This document shows, piece after piece, positions 32,665-40,049 of a DNA stretch of 64,000 nucleotides (within the stretch, counting starts at the first letter, position 1; every line of letters begins with the position of its first letter). This DNA is from an uncultured SAR86 cluster bacterium (GTDB taxonomy: Bacteria > Pseudomonadota > Gammaproteobacteria > Magnimaribacterales > D2472): the NCBI GenBank assembly GCA_902517505.1, contig CABYCL010000002.1, positions 1,941-65,940 on the forward strand, in the 5' to 3' direction. The position numbers were made by a program, and so were the translations under genes. The notes under the pieces were generated by a model. The model made no database searches, was not told the DNA's origin, and saw nothing but the letters and a program-made list of their open reading frames with translations.

Positions 32665-34311
<1,647 letters not shown>

Positions 34312-37217: not shown

Positions 37218-37898
37218 ATGGTAATTATTAGATTGGCTAGAAGTGGTTCAAAAAAGAATCCATATTATTTTATTACTGTTGCAGATGAAAGACGTCCAAG
37301 AGACGGTTCATTCATAGAGAGACTTGGTTTTTTTAATCCTTCAGCCAAAGGTCAAGAAGAAAGATTAAGAATAGATTTAAATAAGATAGAAGAGTGGAAA
37401 TCAAAAGGTGCTCAGGTTAGTGATAGAGTAGGTGCTTTAGTAAAAGAAGCTAATTTAACACCAGAAGAATTTGCGGCAAAGGTTGAAGCAAAAAAAGCAA
37501 AAGCTAATGCAAAAAAAGCTGTTTTAGCAGAAAAATTAGCAAAAGAAGCTGAGGAACAAGCTGCTAGTGAGGCTCAAGCAGAAGAAGAATCTCCAGCCGA
37601 AGAGGAAGCACCTGCTGAAGAAGAAGCACCTGCTGAAGAAGAAGCTCCAGCCGAAGAGGAAGCACCAGCTGAAGAAGAAGCTCCAGCCGAAGAGGAAGCA
37701 CCAGCTGAAGAAGAAGCTCCTGCTGAAGAGGAAGCACCAGCTGAAGAAGAAGCTCCTGCTGAAGAGGAAGCACCTGCAGAAGAAGAAGCTCCTGCTGAAG
37801 AGGAAGCACCAGCTGAAGAAGAAGCTCCTGCTGAAGAAGAAGCTCCTGCTGAAGAAGAGTCTGAAGAAAAAGATTCTTCAGAAGATGAAAAAAAGTAA
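37218..37898 (+). CDS. rpsP: 30S ribosomal protein bS16 with ~145-aa C-terminal extension (A/K-rich helix plus acidic EEEAPA array)
   Basis: The first ~80 aa ([41 protein letters not shown]...) are canonical S16. The remainder is the extension. rpsP-rimM-trmD-rplS synteny. Confidence 0.9.
37581..37850 (+). repeat. tandem 18-nt (6-codon) repeat array, about 15 units, encoding EEE(A/S)PA inside rpsP
   Basis: Counted directly: units of gaa-ga[ag]-gaa-gc[at]-cc[atg]-gc[cta]. Two subtypes alternate (36-nt super-period). The array is GC-rich relative to its surroundings. Confidence 0.95.
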
Positions 37899-38403
37899 AC
37901 TAGTTTGCATTGGAACCATTGGAAAACCTAGAGGTTTAAAGGGAGAATTTTTTCTAAATTCTTTTTGTAATCCAAGAGAAAATATTCTTAAATACATTGA
38001 TAACATCCAGACTAAGGATATAAAGCTTAGCTTTGAGTATATTAAAAAAAGCAATACTAAATTTCATGCAAAAATCAAAGATGTAAATGATTTAGATGGA
38101 ATTAAAGAATATACAAATATTAAACTCTACATTTTATCGAATGATTTACCTGTACTGTCTTCAAATGAGACCTATTGGCATGATCTTGTTGGAATGCTTG
38201 TTGTAAATATAAATAAAAATGAGATATTAGGCATAATTGAAGGATTAAATAACTTTGGTTCAAATGATTGTTTAATAGTAAAACCTTCAACTGAATCAAT
38301 AGATAACAAAGAAAGATTAATTCCTTTTATAAAACAAACTTTTATAACATCAATTGATAAAGAAAAGAGATTAGTAAAAGTAGACTGGGAAAGTGATTAC
38401 TAA
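37885..38403 (+). CDS. rimM: 16S rRNA processing protein RimM
   Basis: [23 protein letters not shown] matches the RimM N-terminus. This ATG overlaps the rpsP 3' end by 14 nt. The track ORF from 37567 is the same frame read back through the repeat. Confidence 0.85.
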
Positions 38404-38404
38404 A

Positions 38405-39136
38405 ATGAATATTAATATATTAACTATATTTCCTGAGATATTTAATGTTTTAGAATCTGGTGTCGTTTCAAAACCAATTAAGAATAAATTACTTTCTATT
38501 CAAGCTTTAGATATAAGAAAGAATTCTGTAAATAAACATAATCACATAGATTCAAAACCCTATGGTGGTGGTGAAGGAATGGTTATGATGGCTGAACCAA
38601 TTGTTAAAACATTAAAAGAAGTAGATAAAAAAAAACGTGGTCGAGTAATCTTTATGTCACCTCAAGGCAAGAGACTAAACCAACAAAAAATTATTTCTTT
38701 ATCTAAATTAAAAAATATAACTTTAATTTGTGGAAGATATGAGGGTATAGATCAAAGAATAATTGATAAATATGTAGATGAAGAAATATCTATAGGTGAT
38801 TTTATTTTAAGTGGTGGCGAGTATGCAGCAATATGTCTAGTAGATGCTATATCTAGATACTTGCCAGGGACTTTAGGAAACAAAAACTCATATCTAAATG
38901 ATACTTTTTCAAATGGTTTATTAAAAGGAGATGTTTTCACAAAACCTGAAATATTTGAATCGATGAAGGTTCCAGATGTGCTTTTATCAGGAAATCATAA
39001 AAAAATTGAAACTTGGAGATCTGAAATATCTTTTATAAGAACTTTAATGAAAAGGCCAGATTTACTAGATGGTCTAAAATTAACAAAAAAACAAAAAAAA
39101 CTCTTGGAAGAATGGAGATCTAAGGCTATCCTATAG
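38405..39136 (+). CDS. trmD: tRNA (guanine37-N1)-methyltransferase TrmD
   Basis: MNINILTIFPEIF, YGGGEGMVM and GRYEGIDQR motifs. ATG at 38405 is preferred over GTG at 38393. Confidence 0.93.
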   Translation: MNINILTIFPEIFNVLESGVVSKPIKNKLLSIQALDIRKNSVNKHNHIDSKPYGGGEGMVMMAEPIVKTLKEVDKKKRGRVIFMSPQGKRLNQQKIISLSKLKNITLICGRYEGIDQRIIDKYVDEEISIGDFILSGGEYAAICLVDAISRYLPGTLGNKNSYLNDTFSNGLLKGDVFTKPEIFESMKVPDVLLSGNHKKIETWRSEISFIRTLMKRPDLLDGLKLTKKQKKLLEEWRSKAIL

Positions 39137-39155
39137 CCCTTTTTAGGCGAATATT

Positions 39156-40049
39156 ATGAGTGATAGTAAAGACAACAAGAAAAAAGGCTTTTTTTCCCGT
39201 TTATTTGGAGGATTAAGTGCGCCTAAAGAAACAGAAAATAAAGTAACTAAATCTCAAGATTCTGTTGAATTACCAACAAAATCCGCTTTAAACAAAATGA
39301 AAAAAGCAGATATAGTAGATGTTGCTAAAGAAAATGGACTTGATTTAGACATAAATTTAACTAAAGCAAAGTTATTAGAAGCTTTGGAACTCCATTTTAA
39401 TCAGTCATCTCCTCCAAGTGCAGTAGATGATGCGGCTACAGCTATGGCTGAGGCAGCAGAAGAAGCACCAGCTGAGGAAGAAGCACCTGCAGAAGAAGAA
39501 GCTCCTGCAGAAGAAGCACCAGCTGAGGAAGAAGCACCTGCTGAAGTAGAAGCTCCAGCCGAAGAGGAAGCACCTGCTGAAGTAGAAGCTCCAGCCGAAG
39601 AGGAAGCACCAGCTGAGGAAGAAGCACCTGCTGAAGTAGAAGCACCTGCAGAAGAAGAAGCACCAGCTGAAGAAGTAAAAGTTTCTTTAGATGAGAAATC
39701 TCCATCACAGATAATTAATAACTTTGAATCAAAACAACTTAAATCAGATCTTCCTGAATTTAGACCTGGTGATACAGTCGTTGTTTCAGTAAAAGTTAAA
39801 GAAGGTGACAGAACAAGACTTCAGGCTTTTGAAGGTGTAGTAATGGGTGTAAAGAAAGGAGGTTTAAACTCATCTTTTATAGTAAGGAAAATTTCCAGTG
39901 GAATTGGAGTTGAGAGAACTTTTCAAACTCATAGCCCTATTATTGATTCTATAAAAGTAAAAAGAAAGGGTGATGTACGCCAAGCTAAATTATTTTTTCT
40001 AAGAGAAAGATCTGGAAAATCTGCAAGAATTAAAGAACGTCTAGAATAA
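39156..40049 (+). CDS. rplS: 50S ribosomal protein bL19 with ~182-aa N-terminal extension
   Basis: The C-terminal 114 aa ([25 protein letters not shown]...RLQAFEGVV...[19 protein letters not shown]...IKERLE) are canonical L19. There is no in-frame ATG/GTG/TTG between Met97 (nt 39444) and the L19 core. Confidence 0.85.
39459..39668 (+). repeat. tandem acidic repeat array ([17 protein letters not shown] units) inside the rplS N-terminal extension
   Basis: Read directly. The unit family and codon usage match the rpsP array, and an exact 33-nt match links the two arrays. Confidence 0.9.

What the first reader, a model, noticed from the sequence alone, without database searches (positions are those of the whole stretch)
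37581..39668. The same acidic repeat DNA occurs in two ribosomal genes and brackets rimM-trmD as direct repeats
The rpsP array (37581-37850) and the rplS array (39459-39668) encode the same peptide family. They also share codon-level identity. The 33-mer agaagctccagccgaagaggaagcaccagctga occurs exactly at 37640-37672 and 37676-37708 in rpsP, and at 39584-39616 in rplS.

Identical synonymous choices argue for common descent or ongoing gene conversion rather than convergent selection on the peptide. The two arrays are direct repeats about 1.9 kb apart flanking the essential rimM and trmD. Homologous recombination between them would delete those genes and create an in-frame S16-L19 fusion. That outcome should be strongly counter-selected, which makes persistence of the shared sequence notable.

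The coordinated decoration of one 30S and one 50S protein from the same operon suggests a shared function. Possibilities include interaction with a common basic partner, phase-separation or crowding behaviour, or cation buffering.
Basis: partly seen in the sequence, partly recalled or inferred. Interest (0 to 1): 0.65.

Follow-up and report, generated by a model that had tools for sequence, protein, structure and literature searches.

The report
Acidic repeat tails on S16 and L19
Two ribosomal protein genes of a marine SAR86 bacterium each carry an in-frame 18-base tandem repeat encoding a floppy, highly acidic tail; such tails are already known, the shared 33-mer is mostly a by-product of codon bias, and only a ~110-base tract suggests real copying between the genes.

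Summary
The rpsP array (37581-37858) and the rplS array (39458-39675) are in-frame 18-nt tandem repeats encoding EEEAPA-type peptide. The 33-mer occurs exactly three times, and both arrays share one reading frame and phase.

The key inference is only partly right. With the peptides fixed, synonymous-codon shuffles give a shared exact word of 26-31 nt on average, and P(>=33) is 0.07-0.33. A longer tract does exceed these nulls: 37620-37727 versus 39528-39635 is 103/108 identical (P~0.002).

Across 13 SAR86 lineages, the two arrays of one genome resemble each other more than arrays of different genomes (permutation P~1e-4). However, 9 of 13 lineages show no synonymous excess, and several have unlike arrays.

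A/E-rich low-complexity tails on S16 and L19 are already documented (PMC6821194). The arrays are hypervariable and predicted to be disordered. They sit between the ribosomal core and conserved distal elements.

In L19 the distal element is unexpected: a MinD/RocS-like membrane-targeting motif ([12 protein letters not shown]) plus a SAP/Rho_N-like domain.

The predicted S16-L19 fusion ORFs do occur in public assemblies. They are most likely assembly shortcuts.

The parts
37218..37898 (+). rpsP (ribosomal protein S16, 226 aa). It has the S16 core, a long K/A-rich helix (residues 82-120), an acidic array and a conserved C-terminal end.
   Evidence: ORF list. Pfam PF00886 on residues 8-68, E=1.5e-21. 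AF2 model: core pLDDT ~90, helix 82-120, residues 121-226 at pLDDT 38-52.
37581..37858 (+). rpsP coding minisatellite. 15.4 x 18 nt, with a 36-nt higher-order unit, encoding (EEEAPA)n. Net charge -47, GC 53%.
   Evidence: TRF scores 381 and 437. Unit haplotypes listed. Composition E 51%, A 32%, P 16%.
37857..37895 (+). Conserved S16 C-terminal end, [13 protein letters not shown] (motif DSS[DE]DE.K), distal to the variable array.
   Evidence: Conserved across SAR86 S16 homologues while the array length varies.
37885..38403 (+). rimM. Its start overlaps the rpsP stop codon.
   Evidence: Pfam RimM and PRC_RimM.
38405..39136 (+). trmD (tRNA m1G37 methyltransferase).
   Evidence: Pfam PF01746, E=1.2e-54.
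39156..40049 (+). rplS (ribosomal protein L19, 297 aa) with a 184-residue N-terminal extension.
   Evidence: Pfam PF01245 on residues 185-295, E=5.6e-46.
39177..39212 (+). L19 residues 8-19, [12 protein letters not shown]. This is a MinD/RocS/FtsY-like amphipathic membrane-targeting-sequence-like motif.
   Evidence: Invariant G11-R15 in homologues. RocS MTS is KKGFFARLFGGK (PMC13042908). MinD MTS is KGFLKRLFGG (PMC5471200). Weak profile hits to a BamC segment (E=0.004) and to the FtsY N-terminus (E~3.4).
39276..39404 (+). L19 residues 41-83: a SAP/Rho_N-like helix-extended-helix module.
   Evidence: AF2 pLDDT 87-93, with helices 42-46, 50-59 and 70-83. Foldseek top hits are SAP domains of FAN1, 3'hExo and MKL1 and the Rho N-terminal domain, all at E~1. 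Pfam SAP E=0.055, below the cut-off. The extension profile hits proteins carrying Pfam Rho_N/SAP.
39458..39675 (+). rplS coding minisatellite. 12.3 x 18 nt (one 15-nt unit), encoding [12 protein letters not shown] units. Net charge -33, GC 53%.
   Evidence: TRF score 268. Haplotypes. Composition.
37620..37727 (+). rpsP side of the shared tract (six units). It is 103/108 identical to 39528-39635.
   Evidence: Best-window scan and diagonal alignment. P=0.002-0.003 against synonymous shuffles and against a haplotype-preserving redraw.
39528..39635 (+). rplS side of the shared tract. It is flanked by rplS-private unit haplotypes (GAG GAA GAA GCA CCT GCx) that are absent from rpsP.

Best explanation
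Each array is a protein-coding minisatellite of 18-nt units, partly organised as 36-nt double units. It encodes an intrinsically disordered, strongly polyanionic Glu/Ala/Pro segment that projects from the ribosome. The window's organism belongs to the SAR86 cluster (Gammaproteobacteria, about 32% GC).

What is selected is composition and disorder, not exact sequence or length. Unit number and unit variants turn over quickly, presumably by replication slippage or unequal exchange. The flanks are conserved.

In S16 the array links the core and a K/A helix to a conserved DSSEDEKK end. In L19 it links a conserved N-terminal module to the L19 core. That module is a MinD/RocS-like amphipathic motif followed by a SAP/Rho_N-like domain. 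The arrays therefore act as acidic spacers or 'bristles', adding about -80 charges per 70S ribosome.

Most of the DNA resemblance between the two genes follows from encoding the same peptide with two favoured codons per residue. On top of that, sequence has occasionally been copied between the arrays, either by gene conversion or by template switching. In the window this shows as a ~108-nt tract.

rpsP is the likelier donor. S16 arrays are universal in SAR86 and occur well beyond it, whereas EAP-type L19 arrays are confined to sublineages.

Shown: the anatomy, the hypervariability, the predicted disorder, the statistics and the published class. Inferred: the slippage mechanism, the direction of copying and the spacer/bristle function.
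For: - Anatomy and frame.
- Composition: A+E is 83% of the S16 array and 79% of the L19 array. Charges are -47 and -33.
- AF2: S16 residues 121-226 have pLDDT 38-52.
- Hypervariable array length between conserved flanks. L19 homologues span 249-374 aa with near-invariant N-module and core. S16 homologues span 129-226 aa with a conserved C-end.
- Codon-bias null: the longest shared word averages 26-31 nt.
- Extended tract of 103/108 identity, P~0.002 under two nulls.
- Same-genome versus cross-genome array similarity, P~1e-4 for DNA and 5e-5 to 9e-4 for peptide.
- Lineage-private variants shared by both genes. L046 has EEAATEEEAP, L101/L104/L126 have EEVVAEEAP, L107 has [11 protein letters not shown] and L108 has EEAPVEEEAPV.
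- L134 has AEEAAAEETPTEEAPVEEA with a 45-nt exact match.
- Nominal synonymous excess in L107 and L108.
- S16 arrays also occur in HIMB1674, SAR11, other Alphaproteobacteria and Planctomycetota.
- Published survey: S16 is among the most LCR-rich bacterial proteins. S16 LCRs (157/187) and L19 LCRs (24/32) are mostly Ala+Glu (PMC6821194).
Against: - In 9 of 13 lineages, synonymous sharing between the two arrays is no greater than expected. The combined Fisher test is not significant.
- The window tract P-values are post hoc over several window sizes.
- Shared lineage-specific peptide variants could reflect lineage-specific compositional selection rather than copying.
- SAR86 lineages lacking the MTS/SAP module still keep a shorter acidic L19 extension (L002-L004, L007, L023, L101, L117). 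The array is therefore not merely a linker to that module.
- Array sequences in short-read assemblies may be collapsed or chimeric. How the window itself was assembled is unknown.
- No functional data exist.
Confidence: 0.55

Rival explanations
1. Pure convergence. The two arrays arose and evolve independently. Identical peptides plus strong codon bias, together with internal amplification of a few units, produce all the shared DNA, with no copying between the genes.
For: The exact 33-mer is not significant: P is 0.07-0.33 and 0.18. The best 36-nt window match is also not significant. Nine of 13 lineages show no synonymous excess. EEAPAEEE-type arrays recur in S16 of unrelated phyla. A/E-rich LCRs are common in many ribosomal proteins.
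Against: The 72-108-nt tract exceeds both the synonymous-shuffle null and the haplotype-preserving null (P 0.002-0.025). Same-genome pairing is significant at both peptide and DNA level. Long lineage-private peptides are shared, such as the 19-aa AEEAAAEETPTEEAPVEEA with a 45-nt identical core in L134. L107 and L108 show nominal excess.
Confidence: 0.25
2. Assembly artefact. Part of the similarity, including the shared tract, was created when short reads from the two arrays were mixed during assembly. The true arrays would then be less alike, or different in length.
For: Many metagenome contigs end at the rpsP array, or consist only of the ~1.6-1.7-kb inter-array segment. Public assemblies contain S16-L19 fusion ORFs lacking rimM-trmD (P0223, P0245, P0271, P0294, P0318). 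They also contain reciprocal junctions joining the L19 N-module, an array and the S16 C-end (L056, L058). Some ORFs end in adapter-like or frameshifted sequence (P0271, P0218, P0313).
Against: The window carries both arrays in the normal operon order, in frame, with array-private haplotypes on either side of the tract. Mixing by an assembler requires real shared k-mers in the first place. The same pattern appears in single-cell genomes and in many independent metagenomes.
Confidence: 0.12
3. Functional matching. S16 and L19 tails must carry the same peptide because they engage a common partner or co-condense. Selection, rather than recombination, would keep them alike.
For: Within-genome similarity at the peptide level. 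Both proteins come from one operon. Acidic tails are retained in a streamlined genome.
Against: Many SAR86 lineages have clearly different arrays in the two proteins, or no repeats in L19 at all (L002, L003, L023, L117/L124, HIMB1674). Array length varies several-fold among near-identical proteins. No partner is known.
Confidence: 0.08

Closest known systems
Ala/Glu-rich low-complexity regions of bacterial ribosomal proteins S16 and L19 (Ntountoumi et al. 2019, NAR; PMC6821194)
   Same: Both are terminal extensions outside the conserved domain, with more than 70% Ala+Glu. They occur in S16 (more than 100 genera) and in L19. The function is unknown but is presumed to be selected.
   Different: Here both tails are encoded by clean 18/36-nt tandem repeats in one operon and contain regular Pro. 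They share a ~108-nt tract. In L19 the tail is capped by a conserved MTS-like plus SAP-like module, which that survey does not describe.
Flexible acidic or Ala-rich tethers of ribosomal stalk proteins (bL12 hinge; archaeal/eukaryotic P1/P2 tails ending in a conserved peptide). Recalled from general knowledge and not tested here.
   Same: A disordered Ala/Glu/Pro-rich spacer projects from the ribosome and ends in a short conserved element. Compare the S16 DSSEDEKK end and the L19 N-module.
   Different: The proteins and ribosomal sites are different. No factor-binding role is known, there is no homology, and the length is far more variable.
FtsY A-domain and MinD/RocS membrane-targeting sequences (RocS MTS KKGFFARLFGGK, PMC13042908; MinD MTS KGFLKRLFGG, PMC5471200)
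   Same: L19 residues 8-19, [12 protein letters not shown], match the RocS MTS at 10 of 11 positions. As in FtsY, the motif is N-terminal and is followed by an acidic region.
   Different: Here the motif is attached to a ribosomal protein. Membrane binding is untested. The HMM hit to the FtsY N-terminus is not significant (E~3.4).
Concerted evolution of duplicated bacterial sequences by gene conversion (for example tufA/tufB and rRNA operons). Recalled from general knowledge.
   Same: Non-allelic sequences in one genome stay more alike than expected, with discrete identical tracts.
   Different: The substrates here are short, imperfect, low-complexity arrays in non-homologous genes. Homogenisation is partial and lineage-dependent, and most of the identity is explained by codon bias.

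Membership tests
A/E-rich low-complexity extension of a bacterial ribosomal protein (PMC6821194) | The low-complexity segment lies outside the conserved ribosomal domain. | tested here: met
   The S16 domain covers residues 8-68 and the array covers 122-213. The L19 domain covers 185-295 and the array covers 102-173.
A/E-rich low-complexity extension of a bacterial ribosomal protein (PMC6821194) | More than 70% Ala+Glu within the region. | tested here: met
   The S16 array is E 51% + A 32%. The L19 array is E 46% + A 33%.
A/E-rich low-complexity extension of a bacterial ribosomal protein (PMC6821194) | Intrinsic disorder. | tested here: met
   In the AF2 model, S16 residues 121-226 are coil with pLDDT 38-52. 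This is a prediction only, and the L19 array was not modelled.
Protein-coding minisatellite evolving by slippage | Head-to-tail units whose length is a multiple of 3 nt, in frame. | tested here: met
   TRF periods of 18 and 36 nt. Units are listed.
Protein-coding minisatellite evolving by slippage | Copy-number polymorphism among close relatives with conserved flanks. | tested here: met
   L19 is 249-374 aa and S16 is 129-226 aa among hits whose flanks are 85-100% identical. Strain pairs L101/L104 and L069-L071 differ by whole units. Caveat: short-read assemblies may collapse arrays.
Gene conversion / concerted evolution between the two arrays | Same-genome arrays are more alike than cross-genome pairings. 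| tested here: met
   Permutation over 13 lineages gives P~1e-4 for DNA (k=12/15) and 5e-5 to 9e-4 for peptide. The signal is driven by the window, L107, L108, L126 and L046.
Gene conversion / concerted evolution between the two arrays | Synonymous-site identity beyond what the peptide and codon bias give, in a discrete tract. | tested here: inconclusive
   The window 108-nt tract is 103/108 identical, P~0.002. L107, L108 and L134 reach P 0.003-0.03. The 33-mer is not significant, 9 of 13 lineages are not significant and the Fisher combination is not significant.
MinD/RocS/FtsY-type amphipathic membrane-targeting sequence | A short terminal motif: basic residues, then G-F-[FL]-x-R-L-F-G-G. | tested here: met
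   L19 residues 8-19 are [12 protein letters not shown], against RocS KKGFFARLFGG and MinD KGFLKRLFGG. The motif is invariant in homologues. It is near the N-terminus, as in FtsY, not at the C-terminus as in MinD and RocS.
MinD/RocS/FtsY-type amphipathic membrane-targeting sequence | Binds the membrane. | not testable with these tools
   This needs a GFP fusion or a liposome assay.
SAP / Rho_N helix-extended-helix domain | A two-helix fold of about 35-45 residues separated by an extended loop. | tested here: met
   AF2 residues 41-83 have pLDDT ~90, with helices 50-59 and 70-83. RMSD is 1.2-1.4 A over 43 columns to the Rho N-terminal domain and to T4 endonuclease VII.
SAP / Rho_N helix-extended-helix domain | Significant sequence or structure match to the family model. 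| tested here: not met
   Pfam SAP scores 13.6 bits against a cut-off of 23.9. Foldseek E-values are about 1. Indirect support only: the extension profile hits proteins that carry Pfam Rho_N/SAP. It is therefore described as 'SAP-like' and is not filed as a member.

The most novel reading that the evidence does not exclude
In a large SAR86 subclade, ribosomal protein L19 carries at its N-terminus a MinD/RocS-type membrane-targeting amphipathic motif and a SAP/Rho_N-like nucleic-acid-binding module. Both are held 70-130 residues from the 50S subunit by the acidic repeat. If the motif binds lipid in vivo, these streamlined, transporter-rich cells would tether ribosomes, or free L19, directly to the inner membrane. 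The SAP-like domain might also tether them to DNA or RNA. The repeat array would set the tether length. Stray architectures hint that this acidic-linker-plus-SAP design is used on several ribosomal proteins: S16-array-SAP (P0302) and L31-SAP-like-array (P0147).
Probability: 0.2. Interest if true: 0.75.

Novelty: new variant of a known kind. Interest (0 to 1): 0.42.

Why it matters
Acidic Ala/Glu tails on S16 and L19 are widespread, costly, and still without a known function. SAR86 offers an extreme, repeat-encoded and rapidly evolving example in a very abundant ocean bacterium.

The analysis gives three practical points:
- Exact shared words between low-complexity coding repeats are poor evidence of gene conversion unless they are tested against codon-constrained nulls.
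- The two arrays break or short-circuit short-read assemblies. This produces spurious S16-L19 fusion proteins in public databases and truncated marker genes in SAR86 MAGs.
- The L19 extension carries a membrane-targeting-like motif and a SAP-like domain. This is a testable lead to ribosome localisation in streamlined marine bacteria.

Tried and rejected
- Protein search with the repeat peptide alone returned nothing because of HMMER's bias filter. The 'generic linker across the proteome' test could therefore not be made that way.
- Contigs of the closest L19 relatives (P0001, P0002, P0006) stop before rpsP. No very close strain with both arrays was obtained.
- Exact-word (LCS) statistics were abandoned as evidence after the codon-shuffle nulls.
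- Rfam found no RNA family anywhere in the window. Promoter and terminator scans gave nothing above background relevant to the arrays.
- The long antisense and alternate-frame ORFs over the arrays (37564-37809 minus strand, 39442-39708 minus strand, and the 37567 frame) are by-products of the repeat, being Leu/Gln- or Lys-rich.
- Foldseek and Pfam could not place the L19 helix-extended-helix module significantly in SAP or Rho_N.
- Scanning 733 kb of fetched loci for other acidic E/A/P arrays found only S16 and L19 genes, fragments of them, or chimeras. These loci are all the same neighbourhood, so this is not a genome-wide test.
- Literature searches found no report of SAR86 ribosomal extensions or of a ribosomal protein carrying an MTS.
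Full report
**What is there.** The region is a canonical trmD operon.
- rpsP is 37218-37898 and encodes S16 (226 aa).
- rimM is 37885-38403.
- trmD is 38405-39136.
- rplS is 39156-40049 and encodes L19 (297 aa).
- xerD and dsbC follow downstream.

The window has 31.7% GC. Its closest genomic relatives are SAR86-cluster single-cell genomes and MAGs. The best TrmD match in ocean metagenomes is 97% identical.

**The arrays.** Tandem Repeats Finder reports two arrays, and they are the only ones of this kind in the 64 kb.
- 37581-37858: period 18 nt x15.4, or period 36 nt x7.7 with 92% matches.
- 39458-39675: period 18 nt x12.3.

The quoted 33-mer is exact at 37640, 37676 and 39584. Both genes are in the same frame. 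The match offsets of 1908 and 1944 are multiples of 3, so the predicted crossover product would be an in-frame S16-L19 fusion. No other ORF in the window carries such a peptide.

**Is the shared 33-mer evidence of common descent?** Not by itself.

I kept both peptide sequences fixed and redrew synonymous codons in three ways. The table gives the longest exact word shared by the two arrays.

| Null model | Mean shared word (nt) | P(>=33) |
|---|---|---|
| Window's codon usage | 26.1 | 0.07 |
| Pooled array usage | 31.3 | 0.33 |
| Shuffling within each array | 30.4 | 0.24 |

With about 15 x 12 unit comparisons and essentially two codons per residue, a 33-nt identity is ordinary.

A longer statistic does stand out. 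Along the diagonal at offset 1908, six consecutive units (37620-37727 against 39528-39635) are 103/108 identical.
- Against synonymous shuffles, P is 0.003 for 108 nt and 0.013 for 72 nt.
- A stricter null redraws each distinct unit haplotype once, so each array's internal duplication is preserved. It gives P=0.002 for 108 nt and 0.002-0.025 for 72 nt.

The tract is flanked in rplS by private haplotypes (GAG GAA GAA GCA CCT GCx) that never occur in rpsP. This is what a copied tract would look like. These P-values are post hoc over several window sizes and should be read as moderate evidence.

**Comparative evidence.** I assembled 13 SAR86 lineages in which both genes lie on one contig.

Pairing each S16 tail with the L19 extension of its own genome gives more shared k-mers than pairing across genomes. 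Permutation P is about 1e-4 for DNA k=12/15 and 5e-5 to 9e-4 for peptide k=5-8.

Some lineage-private variants occur in both genes.

| Locus | Variant shared by S16 and L19 |
|---|---|
| L046 | EEAATEEEAP |
| L101/L104/L126 | EEVVAEEAP |
| L107 | [11 protein letters not shown] |
| L108 | EEAPVEEEAPV |
| L134 | AEEAAAEETPTEEAPVEEA, with a 45-nt exact DNA match (P=0.03 given the peptides) |

The signal is patchy.
- Per-lineage synonymous tests are nominally significant only in L107 and L108. The Fisher combination over 13 lineages is not significant.
- Several lineages have unlike arrays in the two genes (L002, L003).
- Several have a non-repetitive acidic L19 extension (L004, L007, L023, L117/L118/L124).
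- The isolate HIMB1674 has a long S16 array but no L19 extension at all.

S16 arrays of this type also occur in SAR11, other Alphaproteobacteria, Balneolaceae and a Planctomycetota MAG. The S16 tail is therefore old and widespread. The EAP-type L19 array is a sublineage feature, which makes rpsP the more likely donor whenever copying occurred. That direction is an inference.

**What the arrays are.**
- They are 79-83% Ala+Glu with a Pro every sixth residue.
- They carry -47 (S16) and -33 (L19) net charge. This turns two normally basic proteins into proteins with pI 4.2 and 4.7.
- AlphaFold models S16 as core, then a long K/A helix (residues 82-120), then about 105 residues of low-confidence coil with pLDDT 38-52.
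- Among homologues the arrays vary several-fold in length and in unit variants, while the flanks are nearly invariant.
  - L19 is 249-374 aa with a conserved N-module and core.
  - S16 is 129-226 aa with a conserved C-terminal DSS[DE]DE.K end.

This is the behaviour of a compositionally selected, disordered spacer encoded by a slippage-prone minisatellite.

It is also a published class. Ntountoumi et al. 2019 list S16 among the bacterial proteins with the most low-complexity regions. They report that S16 LCRs (157/187) and L19 LCRs (24/32) are mostly Ala+Glu, with function unknown (PMC6821194).

**What the L19 array is attached to.** The first 100 residues of L19 are a conserved module.

Residues 8-19, [12 protein letters not shown], are almost identical to the experimentally characterised membrane-targeting sequence of S. 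pneumoniae RocS (KKGFFARLFGGK; PMC13042908). They are also close to the E. coli MinD MTS (KGFLKRLFGG; PMC5471200). A profile of the module weakly hits the FtsY N-terminus.

Residues 41-83 are predicted with pLDDT ~90 as a helix-extended-helix. Several weak lines of evidence point towards SAP/Rho_N.
- The best structural neighbours are SAP domains (FAN1, 3'hExo, MKL1) and the Rho N-terminal domain, all at non-significant E-values.
- Pfam SAP is sub-threshold.
- A profile search of 1.84 billion representative proteins finds the module in proteins that carry Pfam Rho_N/SAP.

That search turned up three further items.
- The [11 protein letters not shown] motif is repeated 5-14 times, with acidic spacers, in long Sel1-repeat proteins.
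- A single L31 protein carries a SAP-like module and acidic repeats (P0147).
- A single S16 ends in a canonical SAP domain after its array (P0302).

I describe the L19 module as MTS-like plus SAP-like. Membrane or nucleic-acid binding is untested.

SAR86 lineages lacking the module still keep a shorter acidic L19 extension. The acidity therefore has value of its own and is not only a linker.

**The deletion argument.** The arithmetic is right, and trmD is essential by general knowledge.

The substrate is at most 33 nt of perfect identity inside ~220 nt of ~85% identity, 1.9 kb apart. From general knowledge of recombination requirements, lethal deletions should be rare and simply purged. Persistence needs no special explanation.

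The predicted product does exist in public data.
- Five of the top 120 S16 homologues are S16-array-L19 fusion ORFs (P0223, P0245, P0271, P0294, P0318).
- The 4.2-kb contig L133 is collinear at ~97% with a normal operon (L134), except that rimM, trmD and the adjoining gene ends are missing. The junction lies inside the arrays.
- Reciprocal junctions occur in L056 and L058. They run L19 N-module, array, S16 C-end, rimM, trmD.
- Many contigs end at the rpsP array or consist only of the inter-array segment.

All the fusions are singletons on short contigs, and one ends in adapter-like sequence. I read them as de Bruijn-graph shortcuts and cycles. Real tandem duplications, which would be viable, cannot be excluded without reads. 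The same data warn that array sequences in short-read assemblies, possibly including this window, may be imperfect.

**Verdict.** The finding is real but largely ordinary in kind. It is a repeat-encoded instance of the known acidic A/E tails of S16 and L19. The codon-level argument does not hold as stated. A longer tract and the cross-genome comparisons give moderate support for occasional copying between the two arrays.

Noticed in passing
window 39177-39404 (L19 residues 8-83): The L19 N-terminal extension carries a conserved [12 protein letters not shown] motif that is almost identical to the RocS and MinD membrane-targeting sequences. It is followed by a confidently predicted SAP/Rho_N-like helix-extended-helix module. 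I found no report of a bacterial ribosomal protein with such a cap.
   Followed up: partly
P0223, P0245, P0271, P0294, P0318; locus L133 1830-2801 versus L134: Public metagenome assemblies contain in-frame S16-array-L19 fusion ORFs that lack rimM and trmD. They are most likely assembly shortcuts through the shared repeats.
   Followed up: partly
loci L056 (ORF from 1277) and L058 (ORF from 20): These are reciprocal chimeric junctions. The L19 N-module and an array run into the S16 C-terminal end (…DSSKNEEK), followed by rimM-trmD. This is what an assembly-graph cycle, or a real tandem duplication between the arrays, would produce.
   Followed up: no
loci L050-L129: Many SAR86 metagenome contigs begin about 600 nt upstream of trmD, at the rpsP array. 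Others are only ~1.6-1.8 kb long, which is the segment between the arrays. The repeats systematically break short-read assemblies at two phylogenetic marker genes.
   Followed up: partly
P0141, P0151, P0165 (Sel1-repeat proteins) and P0134: Long proteins of 500-1400 aa carry 5-14 copies of a KKGFF[SAK]RLFGK motif, each followed by an acidic spacer. The L19 N-terminus looks like one copy of this 'amphipathic motif plus acidic stretch' module. The function is unknown to me.
   Followed up: no
P0147 / locus L136 285-1079: A ribosomal protein L31 (Pfam PF01197 on residues 1-65) has a C-terminal extension. The extension contains the same SAP-like module, EPVAEE-type acidic repeats and an S16-like acidic end. 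It rests on a single 1.1-kb contig, so it may be a chimera.
   Followed up: partly
P0302 (184 aa, 743-nt contig): An S16 whose acidic array is followed by a canonical SAP domain (PF02037: MKVAELKELLKAAGKPVSGKKADLIARL). It is a single short contig and is unverified.
   Followed up: no
window 37857-37895: The S16 C-terminus, [13 protein letters not shown] (motif DSS[DE]DE.K), is conserved across SAR86 although the array before it is hypervariable. It could be a short linear motif displayed on the acidic tether.
   Followed up: partly
window 39124-39147: A small GC-rich hairpin (GGCTATCCTATAGCC) followed by CTTTTT overlaps the trmD stop, just upstream of rplS. It is a terminator- or attenuator-like site inside the operon.
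   Followed up: no
window 34276-34305 (ORF 32668-34311): A 9-nt repeat, ATGGGCGGC x3.3, encodes the C-terminal [11 protein letters not shown] tail of GroEL. This is another known low-complexity tail encoded by a short tandem repeat.
   Followed up: yes
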